DNA from: Rhina ancylostomus
Taxonomy: Eukaryota
Length of the DNA stretch: 64,000 nucleotides
Assembly (NCBI GenBank): GCA_030265395.1
Contig: JARFYF010000055.1
Span: forward strand, 18,350,862-18,414,861
Direction of reading: 5' to 3'
Position numbers: made by a program. Below are positions 40,801-43,800 of the stretch, piece by piece; positions within the stretch are counted from its first letter, which is position 1, and each line of letters begins with the position of its first letter.

Positions 40801-43800
40801 CCACATCATATAATTGTGATCTGTTAATGTTATAAACTATACAAAGAAAAACATTCTCCACATGCAAACATATCAATATATTATTTTCAGTGTTATACAG
40901 GGGGACTATCAATGATTGCCCTCCGTACAGGGTTTTGCATACTCAATGGTCTGAAGTCATTCTTGGAGACTCAGTACTTTTAGCGATCTCACACTATTAT
41001 AGCATTAAGGAAACTGGATATAAACCAAAATATAAAAATAGCCATTAAAGTAAAATGAAAATAAGTCCTTTGAGGCTGTCGTTTAGAAGCTGCTTGAACA
41101 GATGACGACCACTGGTGGTAGTCTGACTGGTGTATCACAAGGAAAAAAGCAAACTACCGTGAATACTGATAAATAACCAGAAAATGCTGCATATTTAGGC
41201 AGCACATGTGGAGAGAGAAACAGTAATGTTCCTAACTACCNNNNNNNNNNNNNNNNNNNNNNNNNNNNNNNNNNNNNNNNNNNNNNNNNNNNNNNNNNNN
41301 NNNNNNNNNNNNNNNNNNNNNNNNNNNNNNNNNNNNNNNNCCACCACCTCCTCTGGCAGCAAGTTCCAGATATCAACCACTCTCTGTATAAAAAAAAATT
41401 ACCACTCAGATCCCTTTAAAACTCCTTTCTCTCATCTTGAGGCTATGCCCTCTTATATTTGATACTCCTACCATAGGTAAAAAGATTCTGACTATCTACC
41501 CTATCAATTCCCCTCATAATCTTGCATACCTCTATCAGGTCACTGCTCAGCCCCCTTCACTCCAGAGAAAACAAACCCAGCCTATACAGTGTCTTCCCAT
41601 AACGAAAGTCCTCCAGTCCAAGCAATATTTTGGTCAATTTCCTCTGCAATCTCTCCAATACAATTATATCCTTCCTATATGTTCTGGTGTGGTGACCAGA
41701 CTGTGCACAAGGTCAGGCAGCATCTGTGGAAGGAGAAATTAACTCTTATGTTTCAGGCCCTAGACCCTTGATTTTTTAATTTTTATTTTCATTTAATGAC
41801 AAAAATTGCAGTCAGTCCTGCTGACATAATTGAGATTCAAACTAGATTTATTGAAAAATCCTTAGTGGCTTTGGATAGCCCTCCTACCTGCCTGTCCAGG
41901 AAAACAGATGAAACTTAAAAAACAATGGCTCCAGGGTGATTAGGCTACTTCGATGTCTTTAACTGCTCCTACACCTGCGTTCCATCGTTCTCAATAACAG
42001 TATTTATTCATATTCAAGTGCCAAAGATGGGAATCTTTTAAAGGACTAGCTGTATCAAAAAAGGAAGAGAGTAACAGGATCACAAAGATCAATGCATCCA
42101 TGTTTGAATATTCTTCTGGAAGAACAATACTTGAACAATTGAGGGGAGGTGACTTATGCAAGACCATGATTTAAATATCAATATTATTTTTCAATCTTAC
42201 TGCTGATTGCGTGATGTATTAATTGGTAATTGTCACTTTACTGTGAGTCCTGGTCAAAGCAAACTTTATATGATGTTCTGTTTTGGAGTAATTTTGCAAT
42301 CTAACTGTTGCAGGTATTCACTGTCAACAATGATAATTGATTATGCACAAAGAGAATCTGTATTAACTGACAATTACATTTGTTGGTTCAGTTAAAAACA
42401 AACATGCAAGTCATACAAAACTAAATATCTGTGCACACACCTACTAGGTTTCTCTGACCCTCCCTAAACAGTCAAAGAATAGAAAAGGTTATACTCGGGA
42501 TTAGGAATTCACGCTGGCCAGGCATTCCTCTTGATCCCAAAATAATCTCCACATTTCCGACATGGGGTCACCACTTCTGCAGTGGTTGGTCTCCAGGGTT
42601 TTCGCTGCTTCTACACCTGAGAACCTCCATTTTTATCCTCTTTCTTATCAGATTGAACTGTTGTGTTTCAATTTCATTGGCTCAGGCTTATCTGGCTAGC
42701 CTGTGTCAGCTTCTCATTGAATCTGGCCCAAGGCTACAAGCAGTTCTTTATTGCTCTTCTGCCAGACTTGTGCCTCATGTCACTTTCTTTGTTCACCCTG
42801 AGACAGACCAGTTCAAACCAGCTTAGCCGGGTCAGCCAAACACTGGGCTCAGGCTTCTTCAGGTTCTTTCCATAAGCCTGCCATTTCTACTAACCAAATA
42901 AATAGCTTCTATTTAGAAATTATCTCTTTATAAAGAAGATTATTGTTAGGGACCTCACTGTGTCCACTTTCAGTTGCTCTGATCAAACCATACCTGAGCA
43001 AGAACCAGTTCACAAAACAGTTCACACAATGGTAGCCGTAAGACCAGTCTCACAAAATGGCAGCCTCCATTCCTTCCACCACATGGCAAGAACAAAGACA
43101 TTTGATTTGTTTGCTTCCAATGTCCTTGGCTCATTCCAGTTAGCTGCTTTGCAGATTTTAATTCCTTTATGGCCAACATAATATACCCAACACAGTTCCA
43201 TGAATAACCAGAGTGGATATTGTGAATTCAAGCACAAAGGGCAATCAACATTCCCTGTTGATGCTCCACTAATCAAATAATTGCATATGTTGACCCTTCT
43301 AACCAAATTTCTGTTCCTGTTATATGATGGTCTATACTAGGAGTGCTAAGCCATAAGATTTAAGATTTAAATTAAGCAGAGCTGGCTCACATAGACAACA
43401 ACCTGTTTTCTTTCCCCCAAGATACTGTGGAGAAGAGGATACAACTTATCAATAATTACTTCACCTACAGCCTGTACCTCAATGTCTGCAGGAGCCTATT
43501 TGAGAAGCACAAGCTCATGTTTGCTTTCCTGGTGTGCGTGAGGATCATGATGAATGATGACAGGATTGACATGGTCAGTAACACATCTATAAACTCCTAT
43601 GGGCTTTCCAGTGAGTTGTTATATTAAATTTTAAATTTAAATTTTATTTACAGTGTGGTAACAGGCCCTTCCGGCCCAATGAGTCTGCGCCACCCATTTT
43701 AAACCCCAAATTAACCTACCCGTATGTCTTTAGAATATGGGAGGAAACCGGAACACCTGGAAGAAACCCACACAGACACGGGAGAACATACAAACTCCTT

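What the first reader, a model, noticed from the sequence alone, without database searches (positions are those of the whole stretch)
43400..43580. Orphan DNAH1-like dynein exon inside a RUNX3 intron
Seen: a 152-nt stop-free exon with a strong polypyrimidine/AG acceptor and a GTCAGT donor, on the same strand as RUNX3, about 8.6 kb past the last Runt exon. Knowledge: the peptide matches the axonemal dynein heavy chain motor region (NVCRSLFEKHKL), closest to DNAH1, a many-exon gene that is not a RUNX3 neighbour in human. I recognised no flanking dynein exons elsewhere in the window. Inference: this is a relocated genomic fragment. It keeps its splice sites, so it is not a processed pseudogene, and it is either recent or under constraint.
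Basis: partly seen in the sequence, partly recalled or inferred. Interest (0 to 1): 0.78.

Follow-up and report, generated by a model that had tools for sequence, protein, structure and literature searches.

The report
Lone DNAH1-type dynein exon beside RUNX
A single, intact exon of an axonemal dynein motor gene sits alone in non-coding DNA downstream of a RUNX gene's DNA-binding exons; it is either a stray duplicated gene fragment or a scaffolding error, and is probably of little biological consequence.

Summary
Window 43422-43573 (+) is a 152-nt open exon with a pyrimidine tract and AG acceptor and a GTCAGT donor. Its peptide matches DNAH1 chains in the PDB (E=1.4e-18, residues 3494-3541 of 4265). 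The three DNAH1 chains score 64-69 bits. The next hit scores 52.5 and DNAH12 48.8. Homology stops at the splice sites, so it is not a processed copy.

It is the only dynein-like sequence I could find in 64 kb. These scans are partly blind, because Pfam misses this exon itself.

New point: the exon lies in a 5,477-bp piece between two 100-N gaps. The right-hand gap, like 3 other 100-N gaps, has contig ends that overlap end to end (20 bp exact). So 41341-64000 reads as one block. The left gap (41241-41340) is the only 100-N gap without overlap, has repeats on both flanks, and separates every RUNX exon from the dynein exon.

No RUNX exon is seen downstream, so "inside an intron" rests on that one join. 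RUNX3 rather than RUNX1 or RUNX2 was not testable.

Best reading: an unprocessed DNAH1 gene fragment (about 0.45). Main rival: a misjoin to the true DNAH1 locus (about 0.35). Low interest.

The parts
43422..43573 (+). DNAH1-type dynein heavy-chain exon, 152 nt. It starts with 2 nt that complete a codon and ends on a codon boundary.
   Evidence: sequence, frame, splice sites. (PDB: DNAH1 8j07_g6 residues 3494-3541, E=1.4e-18).
43386..43421 (+). 3' splice region: branch-point-like CTCAC, a pyrimidine tract and AG.
   Evidence: read directly. Crude acceptor score 5.5 in my own scoring.
43574..43579 (+). Donor GTCAGT.
   Evidence: Crude donor score 6.4 bits. The same hexamer follows the RUNX exon ending at 26857.
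43636..43871 (.). Interspersed (SINE-like) repeat starting 62 nt after the donor. Other copies lie at 57783-57882 (reverse, 93%), 62902-63056 (83%) and 50554-50604.
   Evidence: blastn of 41341-46817 against the window.
41341..46817 (.). The 5,477-bp assembled piece that carries the exon, bounded by two 100-N runs.
41241..41340 (.). 100-N gap with no contig-end overlap. It is the only join between the RUNX exons and the dynein exon.
   Evidence: The left flank 41160-41232 is a copy of a repeat motif also found near 41716, 13311, 45698(-) and 2237(-). The right flank 41349-41674 is a LINE-tail repeat.
46818..46917 (.). 100-N gap whose flanks overlap end to end: 46798-46817 equals 46918-46937, 20 bp, exact, not low-complexity.
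41349..41674 (-). LINE 3'-tail repeat copy at the start of the piece. The same family occurs at 36846-37304 and at 54669-55263.
   Evidence: Minus-strand ORFs of the RRLRGDL..VYK type at 36925-37236 and 54993-55295.
26588..26857 (+). RUNX first coding exon of the proximal-promoter type ([13 protein letters not shown]...LPVAFK).
   Evidence: (RUNX1 4l0y_A residues 1-90, E=6.9e-34).
28465..28619 (+). Second Runt-domain exon ([10 protein letters not shown]...RFVGRSGRG). The end coordinate is approximate.
34746..34829 (+). Visible part of the third Runt-domain exon (...[27 protein letters not shown] plus 1 nt). Its start lies in the N run 34514-34745, which I did not fill.

Best explanation
The exon is a genuine piece of a DNAH1-type inner-arm dynein heavy-chain gene. 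By recall it belongs to the region between the fifth and sixth AAA modules; it corresponds to residues about 3493-3542 of the 4265-residue protein. It was copied at the DNA level together with its intron flanks and now stands alone as an unprocessed gene fragment in repeat-bearing non-coding DNA. The scaffold places it 8.6 kb downstream of the last Runt-domain exon of a RUNX gene, on the same strand. Shown: the identity, the intact frame, the intact splice signals, the absence of fused neighbouring exons, the absence of detectable neighbouring dynein exons for 2.1 kb upstream (to the gap) and 20.4 kb downstream, and membership in the same genome as the RUNX part (shared repeat families). Inferred: the fragment has no dynein function, since one exon out of many (about 78 in the human gene, by recall) cannot make a motor. 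At most it acts as a cryptic or poison exon of the host transcript. The RUNX exon ending at 34829 carries 1 nt and the dynein exon begins with 2 nt. If the two were spliced, the dynein frame would be read. Because 152 is not a multiple of 3, the next RUNX exon would then be frameshifted.
For: The DNAH1 match ends within 1-2 residues of both splice sites. Scans of all six frames of the whole window with recalled dynein motifs hit only this exon. Pfam found no dynein family in 278 of 278 + strand open segments of >=30 aa between 34898 and 63999. Pfam also found no credible family in 150 of 151 minus-strand segments of >=36 aa in 41341-64000. Only 8 AG..GT open intervals in 41341-64000 reach the exon's own crude splice scores. 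Two of these are the exon itself and none of the others looks dynein-like. End-to-end contig overlaps at 46818-46917 (20 bp) and 55013-55112 (43 bp) make 41341-64000 one continuous block. A true DNAH1 locus would therefore need an intron of >=20.4 kb here. The block shares LINE-tail and SINE-like repeat families with the RUNX-bearing part, so it is not foreign contamination. Composition does not change across the gap.
Against: The join at 41241-41340 is unverified. It is the only one of five 100-N gaps without a terminal overlap, and both flanks lie in interspersed repeats. No RUNX exon is seen in the 29 kb after 34829: there is no RHRQK-type exon and no RunxI domain. That is long compared with the two upstream introns (1.6 and 6.1 kb) and fits a misjoin as well. 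No parent copy and no duplication ends are known. No TSD, TIR or suitably oriented LINE brackets the exon. The negative scans are weak. Pfam gives 0 families for the exon itself, so it is blind to the adjoining part of dynein. The motifs for the neighbouring exons come from memory.
Confidence: 0.45

Rival explanations
1. Scaffold misjoin at 41241-41340. On this reading the block 41341-64000 is part of the true DNAH1 locus (or is contiguous with it) and was wrongly joined to the RUNX intron. The exon is then simply the normal DNAH1 exon, flanked by long introns.
For: This is the only 100-N gap without a contig-end overlap (1 of 5). Both of its flanks are repeats. No RUNX exon follows within 29 kb. 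The exon is as well conserved as a working orthologue would be (36 of 48 identical to a DNAH1 PDB chain, all family-invariant positions kept).
Against: It requires a DNAH1 intron of >=20.4 kb downstream of the exon with no detectable dynein exon. The joined blocks are each tens of kb long, not a small stray contig, and the right side is anchored by exact overlaps.
Confidence: 0.35
2. Another assembly artefact. One option is a chimeric contig. The other is a collapsed recent duplicate, placed at only one of its two loci, so that both the position and the copy number shown are wrong.
For: The assembly is fragmented: 9 N runs in 64 kb, with contig breaks at repeats. A recent duplicate would be expected to assemble as a piece bounded by breaks.
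Against: The right end overlaps its neighbour exactly, which argues against a free-floating collapsed piece. There is no internal discontinuity in composition.
Confidence: 0.1
3. The exon is functional where it lies. It would be a recruited alternative exon of the RUNX transcript, or a conserved element kept for another reason such as regulation.
For: It is on the same strand, has intact splice signals, and its phase is compatible with the RUNX exon ending at 34829. Cartilaginous fishes do have a lineage-specific alternative exon after the Runt domain in Runx1 (exon 4.1, 18 aa; PMC3974841, passages seen).
Against: The phase match is a 1-in-3 coincidence. Inclusion would shift the frame of the next RUNX exon. 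There is no expression or cross-species evidence. The peptide keeps dynein-specific residues, which have no reason to be conserved in a transcription factor.
Confidence: 0.05

Closest known systems
Unprocessed (duplicated) pseudogene fragments, or 'orphan exons', left by small segmental duplications
   Same: Genomic rather than cDNA origin. Intron flanks and splice signals are retained. It is a single exon of a many-exon gene lying in unrelated DNA.
   Different: No parent copy, duplication boundary or second copy has been shown here. The frame is still fully intact.
Chimeric joins in draft, gap-rich genome scaffolds
   Same: The foreign exon is separated from the host gene's exons by an N gap whose flanks are repeats and do not overlap.
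   Different: The piece is not a free small contig. Exact end overlaps chain it to at least 17 kb more sequence, in which no further dynein exon is seen.
Processed pseudogene / retrocopy
   Same: A fragment of a gene away from its expected genomic neighbourhood.
   Different: Homology stops at an AG acceptor and a GT donor. No neighbouring-exon sequence is fused on either side, and no poly(A) tract follows.
Exon shuffling or exonisation, e.g. the chondrichthyan Runx1 alternative exon 4.1 after the Runt domain (PMC3974841, passages only)
   Same: The position is just downstream of the Runt-domain exons, on the same strand, with usable splice sites.
   Different: That exon is 18 aa and belongs to Runx1. 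This one is 152 nt, would break the downstream frame, and has no evidence of use.
TE-mediated gene-fragment capture (LINE 3' transduction, Helitron or Pack-type capture)
   Same: A short host-gene fragment with repeats nearby.
   Different: The adjacent LINE tail is oriented away from the exon. No TIR or TSD pair brackets it.

Membership tests
DNAH1-type axonemal inner-arm dynein heavy chain (as a coding sequence) | Best and significant sequence match to DNAH1 over the other heavy chains | tested here: met
   three DNAH1 chains at 64-69 bits, next best 52.5 bits, DNAH12 48.8 bits.
DNAH1-type axonemal inner-arm dynein heavy chain (as a gene) | Collinear neighbouring exons encoding the rest of the motor | tested here: not met
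   nothing else dynein-like in the window. Limits: Pfam is blind to this part of dynein, and the motifs are recalled.
Processed pseudogene / retrocopy | Exons fused without introns, and a poly(A) tail | tested here: not met
   Homology covers peptide residues 2-49 of 50 and ends at the AG and GT sites. The flanks are a pyrimidine tract and non-coding sequence.
Unprocessed duplicated gene fragment | A parent locus sharing exon plus intron flanks, with definable duplication ends | not testable with these tools
   No collection holding this genome or any eukaryotic genome was open. A genome-contig scan (bacteria/archaea) with the peptide confirmed no relative.
Scaffold misjoin | Lack of sequence or read support across the join | tested here: inconclusive
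   There is no end overlap at 41241-41340, whereas 4 of the 5 100-N gaps have one. Read or link support could not be examined.
TE-mediated capture or transduction | Terminal repeats or target-site duplication around the fragment, or a LINE upstream in the same orientation | tested here: not met
   only short or chance repeats. One 53-nt, 75% inverted pair (41710-41762 / 45652-45704) belongs to a dispersed repeat motif. The LINE tail lies on the minus strand with its 3' end pointing away from the exon.
Location inside a RUNX3 intron | RUNX exons on both sides of the element | tested here: not met
   There are three Runt exons upstream. No RUNX exon or RunxI domain is found in 34898-63999. The rest of the gene would have to lie beyond the window.
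Location inside a RUNX3 intron | The host gene is RUNX3, not RUNX1 or RUNX2 | tested here: inconclusive
   One search lists 17 chains, all named RUNX1, RUNX2 or an older CBF-alpha/PEBP2 name, and none named RUNX3. The RUNX3 call rests on recalled residues ([28 protein letters not shown]) and on the short introns.

The most novel reading that the evidence does not exclude
The join is real and the fragment is a case of exon shuffling caught in progress. On this reading a DNAH1 exon with working splice sites landed in the intron just after the Runt domain, in a compatible phase. It is spliced into some RUNX transcripts, giving a Runt-domain-only protein with a dynein-derived tail and an early stop. 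That would be a lineage-specific dominant-negative or NMD-regulated isoform.
Probability: 0.04. Interest if true: 0.5.

Novelty: new member of a known kind. Interest (0 to 1): 0.15.

Why it matters
If the placement is real, this is one more small example of how gene fragments with live splice sites get scattered into introns of unrelated genes. Such fragments are raw material for exon shuffling and a possible source of poison exons in a key developmental transcription factor. If the placement is an artefact, it flags a misjoin in the scaffold, and probably a DNAH1 gene model that lacks an exon, both of which matter to anyone annotating this assembly. Neither outcome would surprise a specialist.

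Tried and rejected
1. I tried translating 15 kb of one frame for a PDB search. The tool rejected it because of 279 stop codons. I did not read the stops through and used stop-free segments instead.

2. A genome-contig scan with the exon peptide, in the hope of a eukaryotic dynein sequence to use as a local probe, gave 221 pattern matches and none confirmed.

3. Pfam on the exon peptide and on its 83-aa open segment returned 0 families. The Pfam negatives for neighbouring exons are therefore only partial.

4. Rfam (gathering threshold) and a tRNA scan of the whole window returned 0 and 0.

5. I looked for the LINE copy continuing across the left gap in register, which would have supported adjacency. 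The left contig end shows no significant similarity to the expected LINE 3' part, so this was uninformative.

6. Tandem repeats in 41341-46817: none.

7. Recalled motifs for the distal-promoter (P1) RUNX exon gave no hit in a RUNX context; the one pattern match (minus strand, 44985) is a chance match.

8. Literature. A search for DNAH1 plus RUNX3 found 42 papers, of which 10 were listed. All ten are human cancer or cell-atlas studies by title and abstract start. The elephant shark Runx paper PMC3974841 has 0 mentions of dnah or dynein in its main text. Its figures and supplementary tables (CNE list) could not be seen.

9. Human contamination is rejected. The peptide is only 75% identical to the best DNAH1 chain, and the piece carries the same repeat families as the rest of the window. 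I took no part of the window for human.

10. I did not build or search a joined, spliced RUNX or RUNX+dynein model. Exons were searched one by one.

Full report
**What is there.** Window 43422-43573 on the + strand is a 152-nt stretch that is open in the frame beginning at 43424.
- It is preceded by a CTCAC branch-point-like motif, a pyrimidine tract and AG. It is followed by GTCAGT.
- The 50-residue translation was searched against all PDB chains. It returned 58 sequences at E<=1, essentially all dynein heavy chains.
- The top three are named DNAH1: 68.5, 65.4 and 64.3 bits, best E=1.4e-18, residues 3494-3541 of the 4265-residue chain 8j07_g6.
- The next best is a 52.5-bit algal chain. DNAH12 scores 48.8, DNAH7 46.1, DNAH2 40.6, DNAH3 34.2, DNAH6 29.3 and DNAH5 20.6.
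- By my count from the printed alignment, 36 of 48 aligned residues are identical to that DNAH1 chain. Several of the differences (F in YFTYSLY, the terminal DM) are states seen in other functional dyneins in the same output.
- The match runs from peptide residue 2 to 49, so it fills the interval between the two splice sites and stops there.
- The donor is moderate rather than strong. The same hexamer follows the RUNX exon that ends at 26857.

**The host gene.** Three Runt-domain exons lie upstream on the same strand.
- The first is a proximal-promoter-type first coding exon, ATG 26588 to 26857.
- The second runs from 28465 to about 28619.
- The third has its start inside the N run 34514-34745. 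Its visible part ends at 34829 before GTAAGT.
- Searched on its own, the first exon matches RUNX1 chain 4l0y_A residues 1-90 at E=6.9e-34. All 17 listed chains carry RUNX1, RUNX2 or older CBF-alpha/PEBP2 names, and none is named RUNX3.
- The RUNX3 assignment therefore rests on residues I recall as RUNX3-typical and on the short introns. It was not tested.
- I searched exons one at a time. I did not build or search a joined, spliced model.
- No further RUNX exon was found between 34898 and 63999. There is no RHRQK-type exon by a recalled motif and no RunxI domain in 278 of 278 + strand open segments of >=30 aa.
- 'Inside an intron' is thus an inference from general RUNX gene structure: exon-intron boundaries are conserved in cartilaginous fish (PMC3974841, passages seen). 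The window itself does not show it.

**Is the exon alone?** Everything I could run says yes, within clear limits.
- Recalled hallmark motifs of the neighbouring dynein exons and of the AAA6/C-terminal region, run over all six frames of the whole window, hit only this exon.
- Pfam, run on every + strand open segment of >=30 aa from 34898 to 63999 (278 of 278), gave no dynein family and only chance-level hits with E>=0.005.
- 150 of 151 minus-strand segments of >=36 aa in 41341-64000 gave nothing either. One segment, 49538-49645, was dropped for the size limit. Segments of 30-35 aa were not scanned.
- A crude splice-site scan of my own found only 8 AG..GT open intervals in 41341-64000 at or above the exon's own scores. 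Two are the exon itself and the others do not look like dynein.
- The limits are real. Pfam returns nothing for this exon itself, so it cannot see the adjoining part of the protein. The motifs are from memory.
- A direct search with a full dynein protein was impossible. No dynein sequence could be obtained: the genome-contig scan confirmed none, and the PDB tool refuses frames with stops.

The window has nine N runs.
- The exon lies in a 5,477-bp piece (41341-46817) between two 100-N runs.
- At four of the five 100-N runs the contig ends overlap end to end. These are 4695-4732 = 4833-4870 (38 bp, one mismatch), 30694-30709 = 30810-30825 (16 bp), 46798-46817 = 46918-46937 (20 bp, exact, not low-complexity) and 54970-55012 = 55113-55155 (43 bp).
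- None of the four N runs of other lengths shows such an overlap.
- The piece with the exon is therefore chained by exact overlaps to the next two pieces, and 41341-64000 (22,660 nt) reads as one continuous block.
- The remaining 100-N run, 41241-41340, is the exception: it has no overlap.
- Its left flank (41160-41232) is a copy of a dispersed repeat motif.
- Its right flank (41349-41674) is a LINE 3'-tail copy of a family also present at 36846-37304 and 54669-55263.
- That single join separates every RUNX exon from the dynein exon.
- Shared repeat families on both sides show that the two parts come from the same genome, so this is not contamination. A SINE-like element sits 62 nt after the donor.
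- Base composition does not shift at the gap.
- I took nothing in the window for human. The N runs were left as they are.

**Weighing the readings.**
- If the block were the true DNAH1 locus misjoined to RUNX, the intron after this exon would have to exceed 20.4 kb. That is possible in a repeat-rich genome but in the tail of intron lengths.
- If the join is right, the RUNX intron after the Runt domain would have to exceed 29 kb, although the two preceding introns are 1.6 and 6.1 kb. That is also somewhat unexpected.
- Each reading thus pays one moderate cost.
- The lack of overlap at the critical gap leans towards a misjoin. The size of the blocks joined, and the lone status of the exon, lean towards a real orphan fragment.
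- My estimates are: unprocessed DNAH1 fragment about 0.45, misjoin to the true DNAH1 locus about 0.35, other assembly artefacts about 0.1, a functional or recruited exon about 0.05, and a small remainder for none of these.
- No TE-mediated mechanism is visible. The neighbouring LINE tail points away from the exon. No terminal repeats or target-site duplication bracket it, and there are no tandem repeats.

**How it would work.**
- As a fragment it cannot contribute to a dynein motor.
- Its only plausible activity is as a cryptic exon of the host pre-mRNA.
- The RUNX exon ending at 34829 carries one nucleotide into the next exon, and the dynein exon begins with two. Splicing the two would read the dynein frame; such a phase match happens 1 time in 3 by chance.
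- Because 152 is not a multiple of three, the following RUNX exon would be frameshifted. The outcome would be a Runt-only truncated product or nonsense-mediated decay.
- This is inference. No expression data were available.
- 'Recent or under constraint' is not established. An intact 152-nt frame can persist neutrally for a long time in a slowly evolving lineage, and without the parent copy no divergence can be measured.

**Known or new.**
- Unprocessed gene fragments in introns, and chimeric scaffold joins, are both ordinary.
- A literature search for DNAH1 with RUNX3 returned 42 papers. The 10 listed are human cancer or cell-atlas studies.
- The elephant shark Runx paper describes conserved Runx-Clic-Rcan synteny and does not mention dynein in its main text. 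I saw passages only. Its figures and supplements, which list conserved non-coding elements that could have anchored the block, could not be seen.

**What stayed unchecked.**
- The parent DNAH1 locus, the copy number and the read support across the gap.
- The same intron in other species.
- The RUNX paralogue.

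Noticed in passing
window gaps 4733-4832, 30710-30809, 46818-46917, 55013-55112: At four of the five 100-N runs the sequences on the two sides overlap end to end (38, 16, 20 and 43 bp). These 'gaps' are really unmerged overlaps and could be closed. The four N runs of other lengths (331, 8, 98, 232) show no such overlap.
   Followed up: yes
window 36846-37304, 41349-41674, 54669-55263 (minus-strand ORFs 36925-37236, 54993-55295): Three diverged copies (about 65-71% identical) of a LINE 3'-tail family, with a minus-strand ORF of the RRLRGDL..VYK..FFTQRVV type. 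Two of the three sit at contig breaks.
   Followed up: partly
window 43636-43871, 57783-57882, 62902-63056, 50554-50604: A SINE-like interspersed repeat with copies 83-93% identical. No Rfam family or tRNA-like match was found at gathering threshold.
   Followed up: partly
window 52250-53750: A stretch of about 1.5 kb that is strongly purine-rich on the + strand (A+G about 60-65%, GC skew 0.27 in the 52001-54000 bin). It has several 50-125 aa open segments on both strands but no Pfam match. Its nature is unknown.
   Followed up: partly
window 41160-41232, about 41716, about 13311, about 45698 (-), about 2237 (-): A short dispersed motif (GGCAGCATCTGTGGA-like core) recurs five times in the window, once at the very end of the contig left of the critical gap. 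It also forms the 53-nt inverted pair 41710-41762 / 45652-45704.
   Followed up: partly
window 26588-26857 and upstream 1-26587: The window holds the proximal-promoter-type RUNX start exon (MRIPVD...). Recalled motifs for the distal-promoter N-terminus were not found in the 26.5 kb upstream. This fits the large P1-P2 intron described for shark Runx genes (PMC3974841, passages).
   Followed up: partly
window 34514-34745: The N run covers the acceptor and the first few codons of the third Runt-domain exon, so this exon is incomplete in the window.
   Followed up: no
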